From: Mobula birostris
Taxonomy: Eukaryota
Assembly (NCBI RefSeq): GCF_030028105.1
Contig: NC_092383.1
Location: forward strand, 81,797,921-81,861,920
Reading direction: 5' to 3'
DNA: 64,000 nucleotides
Positions 1,001 through 62,493 of this stretch are shown piece by piece (positions within the stretch are counted from its first letter, which is position 1; each line of letters begins with the position of its first letter). The translations under genes were made by a program, and so were the position numbers. Under the pieces are notes generated by a model. The model saw nothing but the letters and a program-made list of their open reading frames with translations, made no database searches and was not told the origin of the DNA.

Positions 1001-1213
1001 ATGACTTTGATGTAAAAGACAGTAGAGGAGGTATTTGATGTCCAGAATGGCCATGTGAGCGTGTTTAGAGAAAACAGTGATTTGTATTTGAAGACAGTGG
1101 GGAATATATTCCAAAAGGGTGATGTGGCCTGGGCAATGGCAGACTCATTGATTTTCCTGCATGCTGTGTTATTGAATGAAGACAATCACCAGAAGTGAAC
1201 TTGGGTTTCCAGT

Positions 1214-1350
1214 AAACAACAGGAATTCTGCAGATGCTGGAAATTCAAGCAACACACATCAAAGTTGCTGGTGAACGCAGCAGGCCAGGCAGCATCTGTA
1301 GGAAGAGGTGCAGTCGACGTTTCAGGCCGAGACCCTTCATCAGGACTAAC
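1214..1350 (-). mobile_element. 137-bp Penelope-derived terminal-repeat insert with hammerhead core
   Basis: TTTCCAGT direct repeats at 1206-1213 and 1351-1358; matches the terminal part of the longer Penelope copy at 45722-46309. Confidence 0.8.
1312..1347 (-). ncRNA. Minimal type I hammerhead ribozyme motif, intact core
   Basis: Minus strand reads AGTC CTGATGA AGG-gtctcgg-CCT GAAA CG TC GACT: stem I AGTC/GACT, stem II, GUC cleavage triplet. Confidence 0.75.
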
Positions 1351-2949
1351 TTTCCAGTGATGACCCTGCAAATCCCAGCTAAGATCTATCTGGAAAAGAT
1401 TGTTTGTCCATGATTGCATTGCTTTGTGCAAGATGTGATATGGTTTGATTTTGTATGCTTAATTTACTGTAAATGTTGGGAATCAATTAAAGGTGAATTG
1501 TTATGTTGCAATGAATTTATTATGAGAAGTGTTAGATTGGGTTGAACAAGGAAGAAGCAGAGTGCAGGATGCCAAATGATCATGCTGACATTTGGGTGCA
1601 TAAATGGAAAACACATTCAGGACTGTTAGAAAGGTGAGGTGTAGGGGGACCGAGGATTCTTGGACTGTAAATCACATCAAAGTAGAATGAAGTCCTTGTT
1701 AACTCTTAGCCATAAAATGGGTTTTGTTCTAGTTAACAAGAAGCAAAGAGGATATTTGTCCAACGGGAACAGTGAAGAGAAGAAACAAGCACGAGTGACT
1801 TGGGGGTTTGAACTAAATGAAAACTAGAAACTAGTTGCCTTTTCTTTCTGTGGTGCAGTTTAAAGGTGGTATATGGTTTGGAAAAGCCACCGCTTGAATA
1901 CTATGGGTAAATTCGGGGCATGAACAAAAGCAAATTTAAACTCAAAGTCAACTTTGAGAAATGTCAGCAACACACACAAAGTGCTGGAGCAATGCAGCAG
2001 GCCAGGCAGCATCTGTGGAAAAAAAAGTAAAGTCAACATTTGGGGCCAAAATGCTAATAATTTTGTTTATAGAACACTTTTCATAGATTTAGCTCAAAGT
2101 GCTTTACAATGGGATAAAACTGCAAGCATGAAAATAAAAATAAACATTAAAAAGTTGTTGGTTAAAAGCAAGGTTTACAAAAATTGAATTTGAGCTTGTG
2201 TTAAGTGTCAACTGGGTCTGCATCTCTAATAGTTATTGAATTCCACAGTTAGGAGCATAATTCAAAAAAAAAGCTGACCTGCAAATGATCTTTTGAGGAA
2301 GATTGTTTTGAAATGTTATGAAAAGTTTGTTAATTAAAAAAAAATGATTCTGGTAAAATGGCAATGCATTTGATTGCTGCACCTTCTACGGGGTCAACCA
2401 TGGTTGTTGTGGTCTTTTTTAATGTACTTTTTATGGTGGCAAGACCCTGCTAGACATTAAGAGCTTAAAAGCAGCATGTCTTACACCATCAGCAAGTTGC
2501 TCATTGGCGGCGAAACTGAAGGCGCTGGACTTGGTGTGTATCATGCCGCTGCTTGCATTGGAGGAGTTGGTGCTCAAAGGCGGTGTGTGCTCTAACAACG
2601 AATGATTCTCTTAGCCGCTTTTCTTGTGATCACGAGACCCTGTTGGACATTATTAATGTGGAATGCCGCAAATCTGATTGACTGATTTATTGGCAGGCAG
2701 CGGGGGAGCTGCATGGCCTTGATCGTTGCAAGGACGAGGCCTCAGTGTCACCTTGCTTACAGCTGCTCGGAAGAGAGCCGTCAGGGTCAGTGCGCTCCAC
2801 TGGAGACAGTGTGGTGCAGCGTCAAAGCGGGAGTTGGTGCTGCCCCCAAAGTATTTGCTCAGCAGAAAACAAACAATGTTATGTTCAACTGCAGATACTG
2901 CAACATTCACGGACTCAGGCCCTTGGGCTTTCTTTGTGTGACTATATAT

Positions 2950-8369: not shown

Positions 8370-10535
8370 TCTTCCTCTCAAATGCCACCTCCAGCTCTGC
8401 TGCATCTGCTCTTAGGATGAGGCTATTCATTCCAGAACTAAGGAGATCCTCTTCCTTCAAAAAAAGGGATTTCCCTTCCTCCACCCTCAACCTCATCTAT
8501 TTCACGCACATTTGCCCTCACTGCATCCTCCCGCCACTCCACCAGGGGTGAGGGTTCCTTTTGTCTTTACCTACCATCCCAACAGCCTCAGCAATTAACA
8601 TAATTCTCTGTGACTTGCACCATCTCCAATGGGATTCCACTGTCAAGCACACACTTCCCTCCCTCCCACCTAGCTCCACTTTCTGTTTTCCACAGGGATC
8701 ACTCCCTATGCGACTCCCTTGTCGGTTCGTCCCTCCCCTCTGGTTTCCCTCCTGGCACTTACCCTTGTAAGTGGAACAAGTGCTACACCTGCCCTTACAC
8801 CACCTCCCTCACTACCATTCAGGGCCCCAAAGAGTCCTTCCAGGTGAGATGACTCTTCGCCTGTGAGCCTGTTGGGATCATGTACTGTGTCTGGTGCTCC
8901 CGATGTGGCCTCCTCTAAAAGTGCAAAACCAACTGAAATTCTGATTGTTTTATCTTGCTTTGTTTTTTTTTAAAACTCCTATTTGTTTCAGCAAATGTTT
9001 TTGGCATCAGCCACAAATTGATGGGAATTATTTGTCCCTTGGAGGTCTTTGCACATAGTCAGGATCAACACATCCTGGCATTAAAGTCCATTGTTGTTAA
9101 CTTAATGTCAAGTCAAGCCAAGTTTATTGTCATTTCGACCATAAGCTGCTGGTACAGAACACAGTAAAAATGAAACAACATTCCACCAGGATCCTGGTGC
9201 TACATGAAAACAACACAAAACTACACTAGACTATGTGAGACAGCACAAGGCTACACTAGACTACGTAAAACAACATAAAAACTGCACTAGACTACAGACC
9301 TGCACAGGACTACATAAAGTGCACAAAACACTGCACGGCAGTACAATAATTAATAAACAAGACAATAGGCACAGTAGAGGACAAATTACAATATAATAAA
9401 TAATGTAGATGTCAGTCTAGACTCTGAGTATTGAGGAGTCTGATGGCTTGGGGGAAGAAACTATTGCACAGTCTGGTCGTGAGAGCCCGGATGCTTCGGT
9501 ACCTTTTTCCAGATGGCAGGAGGGAGAAGAGTTTGTGTGAGGGGTGCGTGTGGTCCTTCACAATACTGTTAGCTTTGCGGGTGCAGTGTGTGGTGTAAAT
9601 GTCTGTAGTAGCGGGAAGAGAGACCCCAATGATCTTCTCAACTGACCTCACTATCCGCTGCAGGGTCTTACGATCCGAGACGGTGCAATTCCCGAACCAG
9701 GCAGTGATGCAGCTGCTCAGGATGCTCTCAATACATCCTCTGTAGAATGTGCTGAGGATAGGGGTGGGAGATGGACTTTTCTCAGCCTTCACAGAAAGCA
9801 GAGACGCTGCTGGGCTTTCTTGGCTATGGAGCTGGTGTTGAGGGACCAGGTGAGATTCTCTGCCAGGTGAACACCAAAAAATTTGGTGCCCTTAATGATC
9901 TCAATGGAGGAGCCGTCAATGTTCAGCGGAGAGTGGTCACTCCGAGCACGTATCAGTCCGTCAGCGAAAACAGGATCTCCCAGCAGTCACCCATTTTAAT
10001 CCCATTTCCCAATCTGACACATCAGTCTCTGGCCTTCTCTACTGTCATGATGAGACCACACTGAGTTTGGAGGAGCAACACCTTGTATTCCATCTGGGTA
10101 GCCTCCAACCTGATGGCATGAGCATCGATTTCTCAAACTTCCGATAATGCCTCCCCTTTCCCCATTCCCCATTCCCCATTCCCATTTACCTCTCCTTCCT
10201 TATCTCCTTGCCTGTTCATCACCTCCTTCTGGTGCTCCTCCCTCTTTTCTTTCTTCCATGGACTTTCTGTCCTCTCCCATCAGATTCCCCCTTCTCTAGC
10301 CCTGTATCTCTTTCACCAATCAACTTCCCAGCTCTTTACTTCACACCCTTTCCCTTCCTGGTTTCACCTATTATCTTGTGGTTCTTCCTCCCCTCCTCCC
10401 ACCTTCTTTCTGACTCCTTATTTTTTTTTTTCTTCTTCTTGTCCTAATGAAGGGTCTCGGCCCGAAACATTGACTGTAGTCTTTTTCATAGATGCTGCCT
10501 GACCTGAGTTCCTCCAGCATTTTGTGTGTGTTGCT
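8370..10535 (+). mobile_element. Penelope-like element remnant, interrupted at about 8918-9937
   Basis: PGTYPCKWNKCYTCPYT...QGPKESFQVR and YCVWCSRCGLL (GIY-YIG region). Resumes near 9940 with LEEQHLVFHLGSLQPDGMSIDFS, a pyrimidine tract and a terminal repeat with a mutated hammerhead at 10441-10475. Confidence 0.8.
9108..9937 (-). mobile_element. Rex/Babar-like LINE 3' portion, relatively young
   Basis: ORF 9412-9792 FYRGCIESILSSCITAWFG...LFSLLPSGKRYRS...SFFPQAIRLLN; (TTGAC)n tail; three ~33-bp ctacactagacta repeats at about 9215-9300. Confidence 0.85.
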
Positions 10536-10539
10536 TTCA

Positions 10540-11850
10540 TTTAAGGACTAAACCCACATCCTCAGCATCAAAACAAATTGTCCCTCCCCTGCTCTTTATC
10601 CTTGAGTGGTCCTACTCTCCCTAGTTAACCTTGCTACTCTGCCTAGTTGATCTTGATGTACAGTAAATTTAGAATGCCTTGGGATTCTTTTGAACTCTAC
10701 TTGCCAAGAACTTTTAATGGCCCTTCCTGGCTTTCCTAATTCCCTTCTTGAGTTCTTTTCTGGCTTCCTTATAATCCTCAAGTGCTCTGTTTGATTCTGT
10801 CTTCCTAAGCTTTATATACTTTTCCTTTTTCTCCTAGACTGTTCATCGGCTCTCTTGACATCCAAGATTCTCTTATCTTGCGATCCTGTCCTTTCCCTGC
10901 CCTGCTTCAATTTGATACACTCCTGTAAGATCCATACTTGACCTTATTTCTGTAGCTATATTAAAGCTTGGGGTGTTGTGGTCACTGTTCCCTAACTGCT
11001 CGCCCACTAAGGTCAGTCATCTGGCCAGGCTCATTATCCAACACTAGATCCAGTGCAACCCCTCTTCTTGTTGGACTATCTACACCAGGGGTCAGCAACC
11101 TTTTTGCCTCTGTGGGCTGGATCGCCTATTAATGAGTGGACAGTGGGCCAGATAAATGCCCAAAAAACACTTGAAATTTGGGAATTATCCATCTAAATGC
11201 ATCTAGTTATGTTTTGCCTCAAATTAATGAATAGAGCATGCTAGAAAATCATTTGTGCTTAAGGTTGCCTACCCCTGATCTACACATTGATTTGAGAAAA
11301 CCTCCTGGATGCTCCAAACAAATTTTGCCCATCTGAACCTCTTGCACTTAAAATGTTCCAGTTTATATTGGGATGGCTATTTTTTTTGGGGGGGGGGTCT
11401 GTAGTGAAATCTCATCAGAGTGATTACACCCTTTTTTTTAAAGTTCTACCTATGTAAATTCAGTGGATGAGCCCTCCATTATGTCCCCTCTGAATGCAGC
11501 TGTGATATTGTCTCTGATTAGTAGTACAACTCCCCTGCCTCTTTTCCCCTCTGTCTTCTTTGAAGCATCAAAATCCTGGGACATTAAGCACCCATTCCTG
11601 TCTTTCTCTCAATCAAATCTCTGTAATGGCCACAGCATAGTTCCATGTACTGATCCATGCTCTAAGTTCATCAACTTTACCTACAATGCTCCTTGCATTA
11701 AAATATACACATTTCAAGCTATCTGTCCCATCATAATGTATTAATTTGTCTTGCCTGCTTTACTGGTCTTGACATTTACCTTCCCCTCCATCCATCTGCT
11801 CTCTGACCTGGTGCCCTGGTTCCCATCCCCTCCCAAACTAGTTGAAAGCT
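10540..11850 (-). mobile_element. Degenerate CR1 LINE fragments
   Basis: ORF 10596-10781 and neighbouring sequence resemble the CR1 ORF2 endonuclease/linker region (RIKRIPRH-like, ggtcactgttcc). Confidence 0.6.
11086..11277. mobile_element. hAT-type MITE, 192 bp
   Basis: 17-bp TIR CAGGGGTCAGCAACCTT / AAGGTTGCCTACCCCTG; perfect 8-bp TSD ATCTACAC at 11078-11085 and 11278-11285. Confidence 0.92.
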
Positions 11851-12909
11851 AGTTTGAAAGAGCTAAGTGAGGTCTCTGTGAATGTACAGCCAATTTTATT
11901 TACTCAGCCAGGATTTTAACAAGGAGCTTAAATCTTCCTGGTTTAAGATTCACCAGGAGGAAATGAAAAGACTTTTTGATATAACATTGAAACCTCTTTG
12001 AAATGTTCTCCTGGAAATGTGCTGCTCTTGTACGCAAAATCAATAATAAAATTGGCTAGTGGTTTGTAAGTAAAAGCAAGAAGTCAATGAAACAGCTGGT
12101 TCTTCCTTTCTTCTCTTTCCCCTCTCAACTGCATCCCCTACCCCTTGAGTTACTTACTTTGTTATTGAGTTGCAGAGTGTAAATGCAAAGACAAAAATAA
12201 CCAGTTTAGAGTGGCTATTTCCTCTTCCACCCTCATCAAATAATCACATTAAGGTACTTTAATTTGGTCACTATTGTATCCTACCTAGGATCCAGGTTTG
12301 TTTTTTTTAAAAATTTTGCTCCCCTCATTAAGATTGACCACTTGGTTTGTAGGGGAGTTAGGCCATTGGCTGAGGGTTGATAGTACATGGCCATGTAAAC
12401 TTGAGTGTGGCAGCATAGGAGCAGAATGGATTGGTTCCTTAATTCCAGCTGCAGGTTCAGATAAAGAGGCAAAAAACCTCTTGATCTTTTCATTTGGTCA
12501 ACATCAGCACAAAAACTCATAGGAACATAAGGCCTAGAAGGTTGTGTGAAATGTCAGGTACTCTTAAATATGTTCTTAAATTCTACATTTTCCAATTGAT
12601 TTATTGGAGAACTGGATGAGATCACTTTTATTACCTAATTTTGTGATTATTATGAATTTTCATTGTCAAGTTGCCACTGCGATTTTGAGACCTCAGTCCT
12701 GTCTGTCTTTGTACAAATAGATTTGATTTCAAACTGTAAGCTCCTGTGGTTTATTTGGCTCTTTTTTTGGGGGGGGGGCACTGTAAATGCAGATTATAAT
12801 TTCAAAGGAAGTTTATGCACATATCTGGACAACTCTGGGTTCAAGATCATGAAGATTTTATTAATGCAGCAACTTAAGTTCCAAAAACCCATAACAATAA
12901 TGACTTGTA

Positions 12910-13158
12910 GCAACACACACAAAATGCTGGAGGAGCTCGGCAAGTCAGGCCGAAACTATCGAGAGAAATAAACAGTTGTTGTTTCAGGACAAGCCCCTTC
13001 ATCAGGACTGGAAAGGAAAGGAAAGAGGCTTTTCAGTCCTGATGAAGGATCTCGGCCTAAATGTCAACTGTTGATTCCCTTCCAAAGGTGTTGCCTGACC
13101 AGTGGGGTTCCTTCAGCATTTGTGTGTTCTTGAAGATTTCTAGCATCTGCAGAATTTT
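12910..13158. repeat. Inverted pair of Penelope terminal repeats
   Basis: ...cccttcatcaggactgg-spacer-cagtcctgatgaagg... with complementary arms; both hammerhead cores are damaged. Confidence 0.8.
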
Positions 13159-14640: not shown

Positions 14641-15334
14641 GAAATGGATGTCCTAGTTGTACCTTGCCATGAAGCCCAGGCAGAACGGGGCACATTAGAT
14701 GATTATTTGAGACACTCCATGCCAATTCTTGTCTACGCTATCAGTGAGGACCGTTTGACAGACAATGAAGAGAGGGAGCTGGAGGACTTGAAGAAGAAAC
14801 ATGCCCTACCTATTTTCTTCATCAAAGTACCAAAACAATTGACAGGTCACCACCCAGAATCTCACTCAGGACCAGACAAGGATTACCTATTGAAAAGTTC
14901 AAAAACTGAAAAAGAAAAGAGCTTGCTTTATCGTCAGCTCACAAAGTTGGAGTACTTAAGTCCCACAGGATGTGGAATATCTCTCACCAACAAAGTCCCA
15001 AGTGTGTTGGTAGAACACTTTGAGAAGTTAAAGCAACTTGGAGCCTTTGCAAAGCAGGTGGTGCAGATGTATCTGGTTGATGCAGCAACTGTGCTGAATG
15101 GCGTCCACTGCCGCTGCCTTGATATCTTCATCAACCAGGCCTTCGATATGCAGAGGGACTTACAGATTACTCCCAAGCGATTGGAATACACCAGGGACAA
15201 GGAAAATGAGTTGTACCAGTCTCTGATGAGCATTGCAAATAGGAAACAGGAGGAAATGAGAGATATGATTGTTGAGACGCTGAGCAGCATGAAGGAGGAG
15301 CTTTTGGAAGAAGCAGCAAACTTGGAATTCAAAG
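14641..15334 (+). CDS. DSTYK: DSTYK coding exon (probable orthologue of human exon 3)
   Basis: Acceptor tttttag|GAA, donor AAAG|gtgagt, 694 bp. Encodes EMDVLVVPC...CLDIFINQAFDMQRDLQITPKRLEYTR...EFK, recognised as DSTYK. Confidence 0.96.
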
Positions 15335-16636: not shown

Positions 16637-16826
16637 CACAAACATGAGACTCTACAGATGCTGGAAATCCAAGCAACACACACAGTGCTGGAAGAACTCA
16701 GCAGGTCAGGCAGCATCAATGGAAAAGGGTAAACAGTCGACATTTCTCAGCCTGAAACGTCGACTATTTACTCTTTTCCATAGATGCTGCCTGGTCTCCT
16801 GAGTTCTTCCAGTATTTTGTGTGTCC
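16637..16826. repeat. Inverted pair of Penelope terminal repeats, centre deleted
   Basis: ggcagcatcaatggaaaagggtaaacagtcgac... mirrored by ...gtcgactatttactcttttccatagatgctgcc; the CTGATGA half of the core is absent. Confidence 0.8.
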
Positions 16827-18430: not shown

Positions 18431-19524
18431 TATTCAGATTTTTATTGGCATTGAGTACTTTTTGAAAGGGAGAGCAGAACAGTATTCCACCCGAAGTAAA
18501 GCAATGAGCTAATCATTTCCTTAATTCAGAACATGTCAGAAAATATCAAGTTGACAATAGAAATGCTGAATTTCTAAAGTAGTCATGCACTGAAAAATAA
18601 CTTGCTGTGTTCTACTTTGATCCATGCAACATTTCTACTTGGTTCAGTAGGAGACGGGAGTTTTCCCTCTTACAGGTGATTAATGGCCATGAACATGGTG
18701 CATCCTCATTCAGTACTTGCTGTTCTTGAGCTAGGAGTAAAGTTTCCTTAGTTCAGTTTCCTCCTGAAAAAGCAAAAACTTATTTAGTTGTTGAAGGATT
18801 TTCGTGTTTGAACATCTTTTCTAGACTCTTTTATATGATGCAAGATGGAGCTTCAACATGGTGCTTTATTTCAGAATTGACCCCATTCTTAATTAAATTA
18901 ACCATGTTGCCAATACTGTACATTGTAGTTGGAAATTCTGAACTTTATTCAACAAAGATGATTTGAATGCATGTTAGTCTATTTTGTTTCTCTCTGTCAA
19001 CTTTGTCCCCACTGTTTTCTCCCATACTTCCCTCTTTCCTAGTCCTCCTGATAGCCTGCCACTTCAGTAGTTTCAAGAATGTAATGTTGGTTGTGTTCAC
19101 TTTGTGTATTCCCTGCTTGATCAATGCTGGAAGATGCCATGATAACTGCTGTTTCTGATCCAATTGTGATATCAAAGCACAGGGGCTCTCCTTGATTCTA
19201 ACATTTATTTATTTCTAAGTTGTTAGTAATGATTTGTACAGTATATTAAGCTTGGAAACTAAATTATCTGTTTCTGCATCACATTGTTAACTATGTTCTG
19301 TACACTTCACAGCCAAGGGTAAATTGTGAAAGCTGCTGCTAGAATGAATCTAACTTGCCAGAAGCCAACAGGAATAGCATGTTGCAATGGTGGTGGGGTG
19401 GGGAAAAGCCAAAAAAAAGCAACTAGTGGTACAGCAGTCAGCACAAAGAGGAAATACTTTGAACAGTAGCTCATTAAGTGGACAGATTACATGCAACCTG
19501 GAGAAATTGGATCTGCAGGATGAG

Positions 19525-19624
19525 CAGCGCACATCAAAGTTGCTGGTGAACGCAGCAGGCCAGGCAGCATCTCGAGGAAGAGGTGCAGTCGACGTTTCAG
19601 GCTGAGACCCTTCGTCAGGACCCT
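19525..19624 (-). mobile_element. 100-bp Penelope-derived insert with intact hammerhead core
   Basis: 13-bp TSD TCTGCAGGATGAG at 19512-19524 and 19625-19637. Minus strand reads GTC CTGACGA AGG-gtctcag-CCT GAAA CG TC GAC. Confidence 0.85.
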
Positions 19625-43790: not shown

Positions 43791-44056
43791 TTTAATATCT
43801 CACTTGGGCTGCAGTTCTGCAATAATACATTTTTCATCTTGGAAGTCCTGTGGAATAACAATTGGAACTTAATTCACAAAGTAAATACGGACAAATCTTC
43901 CTGTAGAATTTCATTACAGTATTGGACCATTCAATCTTTTGTGGTTCTCTCCTGGTTTCCTTTTTTGCGCCTCTGTATTTTTTTCCCTTTTGACTGAAGC
44001 CGATTTGTACACTCTTCCAAATGAGGACATTTCCATATACTGGAAATAAAAGTAAT

Positions 44057-45160
44057 ACACACAATGCTAGGGAAACTCAGCAGGCTAGGCAGTATCTATG
44101 GAAGAGAGTAAACAGTTGATGTTTTGGGCCAAGACCCTTTGTCAGGACTGGAAAAAGATGTCAGGGTAAGAGGTTGGGGGGGGTGGGCGGGGGGAGAAAG
44201 TACAAGGTACTAGATGATGGGTGAAGCTGGGGCAGGGGTGAAAGAAAGCTGGGAAGTTGATTGGGGAAAGAGAAAAGGATGAAGAAGGGAGAAATCTCAT
44301 AGAGGACAGAAGGCCATGGAAGAAAGGGAAGGGGGTGGAGCACCAGAGAGGGGTAATGGGCAGGTAAGATGAGAGAGGGTAATGGTGAAGGGGGCAGGGA
44401 TTACTGGAAGTTTGAGAAATCGATGTTCATACCATCAGGTTGAAGACTACCCAGCCAGAATATAAGGTGTTGCTCCTCCAACTTCACTGGCCTCATCATG
44501 GCAGTAGAGGAGGCCATGGACTGATTTATGGAAATGGGAAGTAGAATTAAAATGGGTGGCCACTGGGGATCCTGCTTTTTCTGGCGTAGGTGCTTGGTGA
44601 AGTGCAATTTGCGTTGGGTCTCACCGATTATACAGGAGGCCACAACGTGAGCAACAGAAACTGGATGATCCCAACAGATTCTCAGGTGAAGTGTCATCTC
44701 ACTTGGAAGAACTGTTTGGGGCCCTGCATGGTCATGAGGGAGGTGGTGTAGGGGCAGGTGTGGTACTTGTTCTGCTTGTAAGAATAAGTACCGTGTGGGA
44801 GATCAGTGGGAAAGCACGAATGGACAAGGGAGTCATGGGAGCAATCCCTGCAGAAAAGGGTGGGCGGAGGGGGAGAGACGTGCTTGGTGGTGGAATCCTG
44901 TTGGAGATAGCGGAAGTTACAGAGAATTATGTGCTGGACATGGAGGGTGGTGGGGTGGTAGATGAGGACCAGAGGAATTCTATCCCTGGTGCAGTGGCAG
45001 GAGGATGTGCATGAAATGGAAGAGATGCTGGTAAGGGCAGAGTTGATGGCAGAGCAAGAAAAGGACTCTTTCTTTGAAGGAGAACATCTCACTAGTTCTG
45101 GAATGAAAAACCTCATCCTGGGAACAGGTGGAGGAATTGAGGGAAGGGGATGGTATTTTC
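44057..45160 (-). mobile_element. Penelope-like element remnant
   Basis: RDRIPLVLIYHP, QGPKQFFQVR, IIGETQRKL, LEEQHLIFWLGSLQPDGMNIDFS; terminal repeat with a decayed hammerhead at about 44112-44150. Confidence 0.85.
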
Positions 45161-45721: not shown

Positions 45722-46309
45722 AACACACACCAAAGTTGCTGGTGAATGCAGTAGGCCAGGTGCCATCTCTAGGAAGAGGTACAGTCGACATTTCGGGCCG
45801 AGACCCTTTGTCAGGACTAACTGAAGGAAGAGCTAGTAAGAGATTTGAAAGTGGGAGGGGGAGATCCAAAATGATAGGAGAAGACAGGAGGGGGAGGGAT
45901 GGAGCCAAGAGCTGGACAGGTGATTGGCAAAAGGGATATGAGAGGATCATGGGACAGCAGGCCCAGGGAGAAGGAAAAGGGGGAGGGGGGGAACCCGGAG
46001 GATGGGCAAGGGGTATAGTCAGAGGGAGAAAAAGGAGAGAGAGAAAGAATGTGTGTATATAAATAAATAACGGGTGGGGTACGAGGGGGAGGTGGGGCAT
46101 TAGCGGAAGTTAGAGAAGTCAATGTTCATGCCATCAGGTTGGAGGCTACCCAGACGGAATATAAGGTGTTGTTCCTCCAACCTGAGTGTGGCTTCATCTT
46201 TACAGTAGAGGAGGCCGTGGATAGACATATCAGAATGGGAATGGGACATGGAATTAAAATGTGTGGCCACTGGGAGATCCTGCTTTCTCTGGCGGACAGA
46301 GCGTAGGTG
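45722..46309 (-). mobile_element. Young 5'-truncated Penelope-like insertion
   Basis: Direct repeat TTCTGGATCTGGG at 45709-45721 and 46310-46322; GIY-YIG C-terminal coding piece, purine tract, terminal repeat with CTGACAA (mutated core). Confidence 0.88.
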
Positions 46310-46544
46310 TTCTGGATCTGGGGTTATCTTGCTGTGCCCTTTAAGAGAAATTTGGGGCTGCTAAATGAACTGTAATTTGTACTTAGGTGTTTGAAACTTG
46401 TATGCATCTTCCTGTCAGTGCAGGATTTAAGTGTATAGAAGTTAAGAACTGCATGAGGAACCTGCCTTCCCCCTTTCCTCAGTTGTGCAAGTTCAGACAG
46501 ATGATGACTTGGGAAATTTCAGGTACCTGGTCTAGATTAATTCA

Positions 46545-47241: not shown

Positions 47242-47415
47242 NNNNNNNNNNNNNNNNNNNNNNNNNNNNNNNNNNNNNNNNNNNNNNNNNNNNNNNNNNN
47301 NNNNNNNNNNNNNNNNNNNNNNNNNNNNNNNNNNNNNNNNNNNNNNNNNNNNNNNNNNNNNNNNNNNNNNNNNNNNNNNNNNNNNNNNNNNNNNNNNNNN
47401 NNNNNNNNNNNNNNN
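47242..47415. other. Assembly gap (174 N)
   Basis: Run of N. Confidence 1.
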
Positions 47416-52538: not shown

Positions 52539-54969
52539 CACTCAGTAGGTACACGAGCTTGTTAATGCAAATATCTAATCAGCCAATCACATGGCTGCAA
52601 CTCAGTGCATAAAAGCATGCAGACATGGTCAAGAGGTTCAATTGTTGTTCAGGCCAAACATCAGAATGGGGAATAAAATGTGGTCCAAGTGGTTTTGACT
52701 GTGGAATGATTGTTGGTGCCAATCAACATTGAGAATCTCAGAAACTGCTGATCTCCTGGTATTTTCTCACACAAGTCTCTAGGGTTTACAGAGAATGGTG
52801 CAAAAACCTAGAAACACATCCTGTGGGCAAAAGCGCCTTGTAAATGAGAGCTCAGAGGAGAAAGGCCAGACTGGTTCAAGCTGACAGGAAGTTGACCGTA
52901 ATTCAAATAACTCCACGCAATACAACCGTGGTATGCTGAAGAGCATCTCTGAACGCACGTGTCGAACCTTGAAGTGGATGGGCTACAGCAGCAGAAGACT
53001 ACATACACTTGCTGGCCATTTGGTCATTTTATTAGGTAGAAACATAGAAAATAGGTGCAGGAGTAGGCCCTTCGAGCCTTCGAGCCTGCACCGCCATTTA
53101 TTATGATCATGGCTGATCATCCAACTCAGAACCCCGCCCCAGCCTTCCCTCCATACCCCCTGACCCCCGTAGCCACAAGGGCCATATCTAACTCTCTCTT
53201 AAATATAGCCAATGAACTGGCCTCAACTGTTTCCTGTGGCAGAGAATTCCACAGATTCAGATAATAATCAGATAATAATCTGTTTTCCTATTTTTGCCAC
53301 CAAAGTGGATAACTTCACATTTATCCACATTAAATTGCATCTGCCATGAATTTGCCCACTCACCCAACCTATCCAAGTCACCCTGCATCCTCTTAGCATC
53401 CTCCTCACAGCTGACACTGCCACCCAGCTTCGTGTCATCCGCAAACTTGGAGATGCTGCATTTAATTCCTTCATCCAAGTCATTAATATATATTGTAAAC
53501 AACTGGGGTCCCAGCACTGAGCCTTGCGGTACCCCACTAGTCACCGCCTGCCATTCTGAAAAGGTCCCGTTTATTCCCACTCTTTGCTTCCTGTCTGCTA
53601 ACCAATTCTCCACCCACACCAATACCTTACCCCCAATACCGTGTGCTTTAAGTTTGCACACTAATCTCCTGTGTGGGACCTTGTCAAAAGCCTTTTGAAA
53701 ATCCAAATATACCACATCCACTGGTTCTCCCCTATCCACTCTACTAGTTACATCCTCAAAAAATTCTATGAGATTCGTCAGACATGATTTTCCTTTCACA
53801 AATCCATGCTGACTTTGTCTGATCATTTCACCGCTTTCCAAATGTGCTGTTATCACATCCTTGATAACTGACTCCAGCAGTTTCCCCACCACCGACGTTA
53901 GGCTAACCGGTCTATAATTCCCTGGTTTCTCTCTCCCTCCTTTTTTAAAAAGTGGGGTTACATTAGCCACCCTCCAATCCTCAGGAACTAGTCCAGAATC
54001 TAATGAGTTTTGAAAAATTATCACTAATGCATCCACTATTTCTTGGGCTACTTCCTTAAGCACTCTAGGATGCAGACCATCTGGCCCTGGGGATTTATCT
54101 GCCTTCAATCCCTTCAATTTACTTAACACCACTTCCCTACTAACATGTATTTCGCTCAGTTCCTCCATCTCACTGGACCTTCTGTCCCCTACTATTTCTG
54201 GAAGATTATTTATGTCCTCCTTAGTGAAGACAGAACCAAAGTAATTATTCAATTGGTCTGCCATGTCCTTGCTCCCCATAATCAATTCACCTGTTTCTGT
54301 CTGTAGGGGACCTACATTTGTCTTTACCAGTCTTTTCCTTTTTACATATCTATAAAAGCTTTTACAGTCCGTTTTTATGTTCCCTGTCAGTTTTCTCTCA
54401 TAATCTTTTTTCCCCTTCCTAATTAAGCCCTTTGTCCTCCTCTGCTGAACTCTGAATTTCTCCCAGTCCTCAGGTGAGCCACTTTCTCTGGCTAATTTGT
54501 ATGCTTCTTCTTTGGAATTGATTATATCCCTAATTTCTCTTGTCAGCCACGGCTGCACACCTTCCTTGATTTATTCTTTTGCCAAACTGGGATGAACAAT
54601 TGTTGTAGTTCATCCATGCAACCTTTAAATGCTTGCCATTGCATATCCACTGTCAATCCTTTAAGTGTCATTTGCCAGTCTATCTTAGCTAATTCATGTC
54701 TCATACCTTCAAAGTTACCCCTCTTTAAGTTCAGAACCTTTGTTTCTGAATTAACTCTGTCACTCTCCATCTTAATGAAGAATTCCACCATATTATGGTC
54801 ACTCTTACCCAAGGGGCCTCTCACAACAAGATTGCTAATTAACCCTTCCTCATTGCTCAAAACCCAGTCCAGAATAGCCTGCTCTCTAGTTGGTTCCTCG
54901 ACATGTTGGTTCAAAAAACCATCCTGCATACATTCCAAGAAACGTAACTAAGAAAGTAGCCGCTGAGTG
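52539..54969 (+). mobile_element. Non-autonomous Tc1-like element split by a CR1 insertion
   Basis: Transposase N-terminal remnant (FDCGMIVGA, ISETADLL, ARLVQADRK, KSISER, TLKWMGYSSRR) at about 52666-53000. CACTCAGT left end; right end ...aaagtagccgctgagtg-TA at 54944-54971. Confidence 0.8.
53037..54942 (-). mobile_element. Young CR1 LINE, 5'-truncated with internal deletion; RT ORF 53257-54558
   Basis: 433-aa ORF with KSPGPDG, YRPVSLTS, QHGF, YLDFQKAFD, GVPQGSVLGP, FADD; upstream frame 54543-54938 with ILDWVL and SDH endonuclease motifs; (TTCTATGT)-type tail. Confidence 0.96.
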
Positions 54970-59574: not shown

Positions 59575-60035
59575 AAACACAAAATAATCTGCGGATGCTG
59601 AGGTCTAAGCAACACTCACAACACGCTGGAGGAACTCAACAGGTCAGACAGCAGCCATGGAAACGATCAGTCAACGTTTCGGGCTGGAACCCTTCGTCAG
59701 GACTCTAGGGGGAAGGGGCAGAGGCCCTATAAAGAAGGTGGGGGGAGAGTGGAAAGGAGAAGGCTGGTAGATTCCAGGTGAAAAACCAGTAAGGGGAAAG
59801 GATAAAGGGGTGGGGGAGGGGAGGCAGGGAGGTGATAGGCAGGAAAGGTGAAGAAGGAATAGGGGAAAACACAATGGGTTGTAGAAGGAGGTGGAACCAT
59901 GAGGGAGGTGATAGGCAGCTGGGGGAGGGGGCAGAGTGACATAGGGATAGAGGAAGGGAGGGGGAGGGAACTACTGGAAGTTGGAGAATTCTATGTTCAT
60001 ACCAAGGGGCTGGAGACTATCTAGACGGTATATGT
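59575..60035 (-). mobile_element. Penelope-like 3' fragment (second subfamily) with intact hammerhead core at 59669-59704
   Basis: Minus strand reads AGTC CTGACGA A GGG-ttccag-CCC GAAA CG TT GACT; purine tract; LQPLGMNIEFSNF coding end. Confidence 0.8.
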
Positions 60036-60037
60036 AA

Positions 60038-60246
60038 TGCACACGGAATGAGAACTCAGCAAATCTGGCAGCATCTCTGGACGGGAATAATCAGTTGATA
60101 TTTCTGGCAGAAACCTGGTGGCCTGATGAAGGATCTCAGTCTGAAACATCAGTCATTTAATCCCCTCCATAGACGTTGCCTGACTTGCCGAGTTCCCCGA
60201 GTATTTTGCACGTATTGCTCAAGATTTGCAGAACCTCTTGTGTTTA
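60038..60246. repeat. Degenerate inverted pair of Penelope terminal repeats
   Basis: gaactcagcaaatctggcagcatctctgga... mirrored by ...ctccatagacgttgcctgacttgccgagttcc. Confidence 0.65.
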
Positions 60247-60894: not shown

Positions 60895-62493
60895 TAGGAA
60901 GTTGAATAGTCTAAAGGTAGGTAAATCTCCCGGACCAGATGGAATGCACCCTCGTGTTCTGAAGGAAGTAGCTGTGGAAATTGCAGAGGCATTAGTGATG
61001 ATCTTTCAAAAGTCGATAGATTCTGGCATGGTTCCGGAAGACTGGAAGATTGCAAATGTCACTCCGCTATTTAAGAAGGGGGCAAGGAAGTAAAAAGGAA
61101 ATTCTAGACCTGTTAGCTTGACATCGGTGGTTGGGAGGTTGTTGGAGTCGATTGTCAAGGATGAGATTACAGAGTACCTGGAGGCATATGACAAGATAGG
61201 CAGAACTCAGCATGGATTCCTTAAAGGAAAATCCTGTCTGACAAACCTATTACAATTTTTTGAGGAAATTACAAGTAGGCTAGACAAGGGAGATGTAGTG
61301 AATGTTGTATATTTGGATTTTCAGAAGGCCTTTGAGTTGCCACACATGAGGCTACTTAACAAGATAAGAGCCCATGGAATTACAGGAAAGTTACATACGT
61401 GGATAGAGCGTTGGCTGATTGACAGGAAACAGAGAGTGGGAATAAAGGGATCCTATTCTGGTTGGCTGCTGGTTACCAGTGGTGTTCCACAGGGGTCCGT
61501 GTTGGGGCCGCTTCTTTTTACGTTGTACATCAACGATTTGGATTATGAAATAGATGGCTTTGTGGCTAAGTTTGCTGACGATACGAAGATAGGTGGAGGA
61601 GCCAGTAGTGCAGAGAAAACAGAGAGTCTGCAGAGAGACTTGGATAGATTGGAAGAATGGGCAAAGAAGTGGCAAATGAAATTCAATGTTGGAAAGTGTA
61701 TGGTTATGCACTTTGGCAGAAGAAATAAATGGGCAGACTATTATTTAAATGGGGAGAGAATTCAAAGTTCTGAGATGCAACGGGACCTGGGAGTTCTCGT
61801 ACAGGTACTTTTAAGGTTAACCTCCAGGTTGAGTCGGTGGTGAAGAAGGCGAATGCAATGTTGGCATTCATTTCTAGAGGAATAGAGTATAGGAGCAGGG
61901 ACGTTATGTTGAGGCTCTATAAGGCGTTGGTGAGACCTCACTTGGAGTACTGTGGGCAGTTTTGGTCTCCTTATTTAAGAAAGGATGTGCTGACATTGGA
62001 GAGGGTACAGAGAAGATTCACTAGAATGATTCCAGGAATGAGAGGGTTAACATATGAGGAAGGTTTGTCTGCTCTTGGATTGTATTCCTTGGAGTTTAGA
62101 AGAATGAGGGGAGTCCTCATAGAAACATTTTGAATGTTGAAAGGCATGGACAGAGTGGATGTGGCAAAGTTGTTTCCCATGATGGGGGAGCCTAGTATGA
62201 GAAGGCATGACTTAAGGATTGAAGGGCGCCCATTCAGAACAGAAATGCAAAGAAATTTTTTTAGCCAGAGGGTGGTGAATCTATGGAATTTGTTGCCACG
62301 GGCGGCAGTGGAGGCCAAGTCATTGGGTGTATTTAAGGCAGAGATTGATAGGTATCTCAGTAGCCAGGGCATCAAAGGTTATGGTGAGAAGGCGGGGGAG
62401 TGGAACTAAATGGGGGAATGGATCAGCTCATGATAAAATGGCGGAGCAGACGCGATGGGCCGAATAGCCGACTTCTGCTCCTTTGTCTTACGG
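60895..62493 (+). mobile_element. CR1 LINE (RT to 3' end, with stop and frameshifts) inserted into a Rex-like fragment
   Basis: ORFs 60842-61093, 61118-61843, 61837-62133 and 62134-62409 are consecutive CR1 ORF2 pieces. Rex-like sequence at 60785-60894 continues at 62494-62822. Confidence 0.95.

What the first reader, a model, noticed from the sequence alone, without database searches (positions are those of the whole stretch)
1214..1350. 137-bp stand-alone insert carrying an intact minimal hammerhead ribozyme
Seen: an 8-bp TSD (TTTCCAGT) brackets a unit whose minus strand starts 3 nt before a complete core (stem I AGTC/GACT, CUGAUGA, stem II, GAAA-CG-UC). Established: Penelope-like elements carry minimal type I hammerheads with a tiny stem III, thought to cleave as dimers. 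Inference: this is either a very short truncated Penelope insertion or a separately amplifying ribozyme-bearing SINE/retrozyme-like family, sitting in the presumed DSTYK intron 2.
Basis: partly seen in the sequence, partly recalled or inferred. Interest (0 to 1): 0.7.

Follow-up and report, generated by a model that had tools for sequence, protein, structure and literature searches.

The report
Truncated Penelope retrotransposon end with ribozyme
The insert is the last 137 bases of a very abundant Penelope-like jumping gene in a ray genome, carrying that element's known hammerhead ribozyme motif; it is ordinary, except that about a third of sampled copies stop at the ribozyme's start, which likely marks where the element's RNA begins.

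Summary
In detail: an 8-bp duplication flanks a 137-bp insert whose minus strand carries a minimal hammerhead core, in DSTYK intron 2 but antisense to the gene. It is the 3' end (pLTR hammerhead plus tail) of a Penelope-like element with RT, a CX4CXXC linker and GIY-YIG. A 24-mer from it occurs 51,560 times. Copies share two fixed 3' ends and have variable 5' ends reaching into the ORF. Short and long copies share alleles, and no array of the unit was seen, so a separate SINE or retrozyme master is not supported. The truncation is not even, though. 36 of 100 sampled arms end 120-146 nt from the tail end. Genome-wide, 1,709 of 20,755 break off at the first base of stem I, against 833 of 59,215 at the cleavage site, most of those being substitutions. 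Best reading: run-off at an RNA 5' end near stem I (inferred, about 0.45); an RT barrier is the rival. All 57 two-armed inverted insertions have one tailed and one untailed arm. Cleavage is untested, and stem II closes with G-U. A new member of a known kind.

The parts
1206..1213 (.). target-site duplication, left copy (TTTCCAGT)
1214..1350 (-). 5'-truncated copy of a Penelope-like element: last 137 nt of the pLTR including the tail
   Evidence: 97.8% to the 3' end of natural long copy L116; 3 differences from the sampled majority, two of them common subfamily alleles
1344..1347 (-). hammerhead stem I, 5' strand (AGUC); its first base is the modal 5' end of the family's short copies
1337..1343 (-). 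catalytic box CUGAUGA (family majority CUGACGA; C to T at a CpG, at the variable position 7)
1324..1336 (-). bulged A plus stem II (4 pairs, tetraloop) closed by G-U instead of G-C
1316..1323 (-). GAAA-CG-UC: second box, palindromic ACGU in place of helix III, and the GUC triplet; predicted cleavage between 1316 and 1315
   Evidence: cleavage site inferred from the hammerhead consensus
1312..1315 (-). hammerhead stem I, 3' strand (GACU)
1214..1248 (-). optional 31-36 nt PLE tail, present in this copy; the family's other 3' end falls at 1244-1249
   Evidence: 3' ends are bimodal
1351..1358 (.). target-site duplication, right copy
19523..19621 (-). second young short copy in the window (5' end at 133, no tail)
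45722..46312 (-). longer truncated copy of the same family reaching into the ORF end (5' end at 633, no tail)
14641..15333 (+). DSTYK exon 3 (host context; the insert lies in the intron before it, antisense)

Best explanation
The insert is a recent 5'-truncated copy of an abundant Penelope-like element, likely of the Neptune clade, made up of the last 137 nt of its pseudo-LTR (hammerhead motif plus tail), and was likely written into the DSTYK intron by the element's own endonuclease and reverse transcriptase. Shown: family membership, the two fixed 3' ends, the parent ORF, and the pile-up of 5' ends at the ribozyme's 5' edge. Inferred: the GIY-YIG domain cut the target with an 8-nt stagger, and RT started internally at the tail, as shown in vitro for the anole PLE. 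It then copied through the uncleaved hammerhead and stopped at nt 137-138. The most likely reason it stopped there (about 0.45 on its own) is that the RNA begins there: transcripts start at initiator-like sites at stem I in the upstream pLTR, and priming at that same pLTR's tail gives a short run-off copy. The ribozyme is a passenger in this copy. It is predicted to need a dimer or the PLE protein to cut, and it is antisense to DSTYK, so it would not cut the host pre-mRNA.
For: Copy number: 3,336 exact 75-mers and 51,560 exact 24-mers, controls 0. Long copies run upstream into an ORF with DKG, YIDD, CKRNKCYTC and GVIY..YIG; Pfam RVT_1 E=1.2e-5 and GIY-YIG E=2.7e-4, both just under the curated cut-offs; homologues with RVT_1 are about 50% identical over 99% of the query. 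Tandem copies read hammerhead, tail, then an ATG about 40 nt on. 3' ends are bimodal: of 100 arms, 62 end at 0-9 and 35 at 27-36 nt from the tail end. 5' ends: 36 of 100 at 120-146 against 4.8 expected; 28 of 94 at 120-138 and 1 at 139-146. Genome-wide, 1,709 of 20,755 break at nt 134, with 28 of 30 inspected being true ends. At the cleavage site 833 of 59,215 break, with 12 of 30 true ends. Copies that read on into the ORF show the same edge: 5 of 17 end at 125-138 and none at 139-268. TTAGTCC and TCAGTT fit initiator consensus sequences (recalled). A PLE start site in the upstream pLTR is reported in PMC2377424 and PMC6765202; internal initiation and dispensable cleavage in PMC11167929.
Against: No RNA evidence for a start site; only contigs were available. 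No excess of G before nt 134, as copying a cap would give: G 29, A 25, C 46 of the first 100 listed (hand count). The peak is broad (120-138). 5 of 17 ORF-reading copies and 5 of 8 extend past 138, so longer templates exist. In Drosophila Penelope the start site lies 46 nt before a 75-nt intron whose end maps at helix I, that is well upstream of the ribozyme (PMC2377424, PMC4209133). The 8-bp duplication is shorter than the sampled mode of 14. The clade call rests on one motif, with no tree.
Confidence: 0.78

Rival explanations
1. Same identity, but the pile-up is an RT barrier or exit point on a longer RNA. Candidates are proteins bound to the 3'-splice-site-like stretch just upstream (branch-point-like CTCAC or CTAAC, pyrimidine tract, CAG and TAG), or fold-back of the new cDNA through the stem I complement once nt 134 is copied.
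For: The splice-like sequence lies directly upstream of the edge, and an intron end maps at helix I in Drosophila Penelope (PMC4209133). Some inverted joints use the stem I AGTC/GACT overlap (L134; L278 and L286). C, the base fold-back would add, is the commonest letter before nt 134. Many copies pass the point.
Against: RT usually stalls on the 3' side of a structure (established knowledge), yet 0 of 100 ends lie at 101-104. Simple TSD-flanked copies peak there too. No shared upstream exon in 60 inspected junctions, and no GT-AG joint among the joints listed.
Confidence: 0.35
2. The short copies form a separately amplifying ribozyme-bearing SINE or retrozyme family with its own master, mobilised in trans by the PLE.
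For: About a third of arms are short. Two loci 1.2 Mb apart share one 202-nt head-to-tail dimer junction starting at nt 135, which may mean one short copy spawned another. Non-LTR retrozymes derive from pLTRs (10.64898/2026.07.22.740005).
Against: No diagnostic alleles at 15 variable sites: smallest p 0.019 uncorrected; mean distances 0.050 short-short, 0.044 long-long, 0.047 short-long. 5' ends vary over about 20 nt. The dimer junction occurs only twice genome-wide. No array of the unit among 348 cores. Short arms are sometimes paired with long arms in one insertion (14 of 57).
Confidence: 0.1
3. The copy derives from a ribozyme-cleaved or circularised RNA, with the hammerhead setting the element's boundary.
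For: Proposed for PLEs in PMC4209133. Breaks at the cleavage site may be slightly above background (about 330 purine-preceded true ends among 59,215, scaled from 12 of 30).
Against: This copy spans the cleavage site and includes the whole core. Ends at the cleavage site are about tenfold rarer than at nt 134. Uncleaved RNA is the dominant substrate in vitro (PMC11167929).
Confidence: 0.05

Closest known systems
EN+ Penelope-like elements, Neptune clade (as defined in PMC8557442)
   Same: Single RT plus C-terminal GIY-YIG ORF, CX2-5CXXC linker, pLTR formed by partial tandems, inverted 5' pieces, 30-40 bp optional tail, heavy 5' truncation, hammerhead in the pLTR.
   Different: No microsatellite targeting was apparent in the inspected flanks (not counted). 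A sharp 5'-end edge at the ribozyme is not described in the passages read. The ORF starts downstream of the tail.
Minimal hammerheads (min-HHR) of metazoan PLEs (PMC4209133)
   Same: Both boxes, bulged base before stem II, 4-bp stem I, palindromic 15.2-16.2, mostly single dispersed motifs from truncated PLEs.
   Different: Stem II is only 4 pairs and closes with G-U in most copies (T at 65, C at 16 of 85) instead of the conserved G10.1-C11.1.
Anolis Poseidon PAc (PMC11167929)
   Same: Two 3' ends one tail apart; cleavage apparently not needed for insertion.
   Different: PAc is Poseidon clade and its ORF starts in stem II; here the first ATG lies about 40 nt past the tail.
Non-LTR retrozymes (10.64898/2026.07.22.740005)
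   Same: pLTR-derived, non-coding, carries a type I hammerhead.
   Different: Those are tandem arrays with a hammerhead per unit; this is a dispersed TSD-flanked monomer continuous in sequence with coding copies.

Membership tests
EN+ Penelope-like element | RT plus C-terminal GIY-YIG in one ORF in the parent | tested here: met
   Pfam scores fall slightly below the curated cut-offs
EN+ Penelope-like element | partial tandem forming a pLTR upstream of the ORF | tested here: met
   L184, L189, L195, L198, L200
EN+ Penelope-like element | optional 30-40 bp tail | tested here: met
   bimodal 3' ends
EN+ Penelope-like element | inverted 5'-truncated partner copies | tested here: met
   51 of 100 and 43 of 94 arms; this copy itself is simple
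Neptune clade | CX2-5CXXC linker between RT and EN | tested here: met
   CKRNKCYTC; shared with Nematis, so not sufficient alone
Neptune clade | RT phylogeny groups with named Neptune elements | not tested
   no named reference sequences were available from the tools
minimal type I hammerhead | CUGANGA and GAAA boxes, NUH triplet, stems I and II, palindromic helix III stub | tested here: met
   stems I and II form in the isolated core's minimum-energy fold, and at about 0.4 probability in the whole insert
minimal type I hammerhead | G10.1-C11.1 closing pair | tested here: not met
   G-U; fold 1.9 kcal/mol weaker than with C
minimal type I hammerhead | compensatory covariation | tested here: inconclusive
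   215 of 221 descriptor hits have the same stem I, and sampling was biased to one young family
minimal type I hammerhead | self-cleavage as dimer or with protein | not testable with these tools
   needs an in vitro assay
non-LTR retrozyme | tandem units each with a hammerhead | tested here: not met
   this copy is a monomer; 7 same-strand pairs within 600 nt among 348 cores, none an array of the unit
independent SINE family | own master with diagnostic alleles and a fixed 5' end | tested here: not met
independent SINE family | internal promoter in the short unit | not testable with these tools
   needs a reporter assay or CAGE

The most novel reading that the evidence does not exclude
Penelope RT primes at the tail of the 5' pLTR of its own transcript and runs off the RNA start at hammerhead stem I, mass-producing a 'strong-stop'-like 130-138 nt class. 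A dimeric RT uses the two initiation sites one per side of the break (57 of 57 two-armed insertions). Some short copies keep the start site and re-amplify as ribozyme-bearing mini-elements without a separate master.
Probability: 0.25. Interest if true: 0.6.

Novelty: new member of a known kind. Interest (0 to 1): 0.33.

Why it matters
The single insert matters little: it is one of tens of thousands, and its ribozyme faces away from the host gene. The family is a useful natural record of PLE integration, whose later steps are stated to be unvalidated (PMC11167929) and whose hammerhead function is stated to be unclear (PMC8557442). It gives three testable constraints. Copies stop at the ribozyme's 5' edge, not at its cleavage site. 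The two 3' ends are used strictly one per arm in two-armed insertions. The lineage amplified with a weakened stem II closing pair. Together these would argue that cleavage does not define the inserted unit.

Tried and rejected
The DNA search of the own genome with the insert returned nothing because common words are skipped; exact patterns were used instead. Rfam: no hammerhead family hit. RNA: no RNA holder listed; contigs of 8 guessed-RNA runs laid on a tandem copy gave no start, end or GT-AG joint among the rows shown, and many rows were not shown, so this is no evidence either way. Spliced-template idea: no shared upstream exon in 60 junctions. Cap-G idea: no G excess. Separate master: rejected. 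202-nt retrozyme subfamily: only 2 exact junction matches. Run-off followed by a template jump as a general rule: only 2 of 10 internal joins fall at 133-135. Older relatives in the window also align up to nt 134, but at least two of them continue upstream in diverged sequence, so they were not counted as ends. The first energy calculation was mis-indexed and was redone. The dimer-cleavage paper PMC5785218 is not held. The search of earlier findings returned nothing.

Full report
Observation. The duplication TTTCCAGT (1206-1213, 1351-1358) brackets 137 bp. The minus strand begins GTT and then gives a full minimal hammerhead: AGUC, CUGAUGA, a bulged A, a 4-pair stem II, GAAA-CG-UC, GACU. A strict descriptor hits twice in the window and never in 100 shuffles. 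Rfam has no matching model. The isolated core folds into stems I and II at -8.2 kcal/mol; in the whole insert those pairs have about 0.4 probability. The ACGU stub gives a 4-bp intermolecular helix of -3.1 kcal/mol. Stem II closes with G-U, the family majority (T 65, C 16 of 85), whereas PMC4209133 calls G10.1-C11.1 highly conserved; that loss of this pair slows cleavage is recalled, not tested. The host gene is DSTYK on the + strand (97% to a stingray protein), with exon 2 ending 10.2 kb before the window and exon 3 at 14641. The insert is in intron 2, antisense.

Identity. The genome is 4.0 Gb, and the nearest named homologues come from rays. A 75-mer of the insert occurs 3,336 times and a 24-mer 51,560 times; the window holds about a dozen further relatives. 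Long copies continue upstream through a pyrimidine-rich region into an ORF with DKG, YIDD, CKRNKCYTC and a GIY-YIG domain. Near-full-length copies show the partial tandem: hammerhead, tail, about 40 nt, ATG. The unit is about 3.5 kb. This is an EN+ Penelope-like element, and the linker points to Neptune (or Nematis) as defined in PMC8557442; no tree was built. The insert differs from the sampled majority at 3 of 137 sites, two being common subfamily alleles and one a CpG change, so it is young.

Ends. Positions are counted in nt from the tail end. Sample 1 is the first 100 of 51,560 matches, all on contig C1 0.1-5.8 Mb, chosen by a pattern 3' of the ribozyme. Sample 2 is 94 arms from 90 loci among the first 100 listed of 3,336; it can only show ends at 110 or more. 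Seven loci are shared, and both arms of some insertions are counted, so rows are not fully independent. 3' ends fall in two classes one tail apart. 5' ends: 36 of 100 at 120-146 (4.8 expected at the background rate), none at 101-104, and the rest spread to 2.8 kb; in sample 2, 28 of 94 at 120-138 and 1 at 139-146. Genome-wide counts agree. A non-T precedes nt 134 in 1,709 of 20,755 matches, and 28 of 30 inspected are true ends. A non-C precedes nt 138 in 623 matches, 21 of 30 true ends (denominator not counted). A purine precedes the cleavage site in 833 of 59,215, 12 of 30 true ends by eye. So the edge is the start of stem I, not the cut site, and this copy (137, or 138 with one base of overlap) belongs to that class. 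Of 30 loci inspected among 419 holding the segment after the tail, 17 read on into the ORF; 5 of those end at 125-138, none at 139-268, and 5 further up.

Inverted insertions. From 94 inverted rows I kept pairs whose partner arm reaches within 50 nt of the tail end and removed repeats, leaving 57. In all 57, one arm has the tail and the other does not (cut-off 12 nt), and arm lengths correlate (rho 0.41, p 0.001). A tail at only one end is known qualitatively (PMC8557442, PMC3846280). The strict rule fits the two initiation sites, both-strand extension and predicted dimer reported for the anole element (PMC11167929).

Separate family? 36 short and 49 long arms share alleles at 15 variable sites and have equal within- and between-class distances. 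No array of the unit was seen among 348 cores in 298 loci. One 202-nt dimer junction is shared by two loci and by no others. A separate master is unlikely; occasional re-amplification of a short copy is not excluded.

Mechanism. Shown: membership, ends and pile-up. Inferred: endonuclease cut, internal priming at the tail, copying of uncleaved RNA, stop at 137-138. For the stop I favour run-off at an RNA 5' end (0.45). Initiator-like sequences sit at nt 134 and 138 (consensus recalled), PLE transcripts start in the upstream pLTR (PMC2377424, PMC6765202), and ORF-reading copies show the same edge. Against it: no cap-G excess, a broad peak, many copies passing the point, and a start site well upstream of the ribozyme in Drosophila. 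The rival (0.35) is a barrier or exit on longer RNA, at a splice-acceptor-like stretch or by cDNA fold-back through stem I. Available RNA contigs could not decide.

Literature seen. PMC4209133: parts 1-2 of 4 (abstract to start of methods). PMC11167929: parts 1-2 of 4 (whole main text). 10.64898/2026.07.22.740005: parts 1-3 of 5. PMC8557442: passages and section 15. PMC2377424, PMC3846280 and PMC6765202: passages. PMC5785218: not held, known only through the review. No supplements were opened; those of PMC4209133, PMC11167929 and the preprint may list cartilaginous-fish motifs or end maps. Seven searches listed no paper on this ray family or on a 5'-end pile-up at the hammerhead. Repeat databases could not be searched, so the family may already be catalogued.

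Verdict. The feature is real and the core call is ordinary: a new member of a known kind. The interest lies in the family-level end statistics, which make PLE integration models testable. Interest 0.33.

Noticed in passing
57 two-armed inverted insertions on G000:C1: Every pair has one tailed and one untailed arm, and arm lengths correlate.
   Followed up: partly
L205:480-815 and L201 (G000:C1 24.80 and 23.59 Mb): Head-to-tail 202-nt dimer (nt 135 to 68 past the tail) with an identical junction, two hammerheads in tandem; only these two in the genome.
   Followed up: yes
L301, L303, L305, L307, L310, L316, L319, L327, L329: Internally deleted mini-elements joining the sequence after the tail to the 3' pLTR, several at short shared sequences.
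   Followed up: partly
parent element, nt 132-155 from the tail end (e.g. L003, L007): Branch-point-like CTCAC or CTAAC, a pyrimidine tract and two AGs directly upstream of stem I, resembling the intron end at helix I in Drosophila Penelope.
   Followed up: partly
first 100 matches: C is the commonest letter before nt 134 (C 46, G 29, A 25), more than base composition suggests; fold-back through stem I or transitions could contribute.
   Followed up: partly
window 1958-2047, 8388-8911, 9953-10542, 12909-13156, 16641-16806, 44024-45159, 59588-60150: Older (70-87% identical) Penelope-like relatives on both strands, several with decayed hammerheads.
   Followed up: no
window 53257-54570 (-) and 61094-61843 (+): Long RT-like open frames resembling CR1-type LINEs (label recalled, not tested).
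   Followed up: no
window 14641-37746 (+): DSTYK exons 3-13 lie in the window.
   Followed up: yes
L188 (oriented 1038-1560): A 162-nt piece spanning the start of the PLE ORF is repeated head to tail in front of the ORF.
   Followed up: no
window 47242-47415: 174-base run of N.
   Followed up: no
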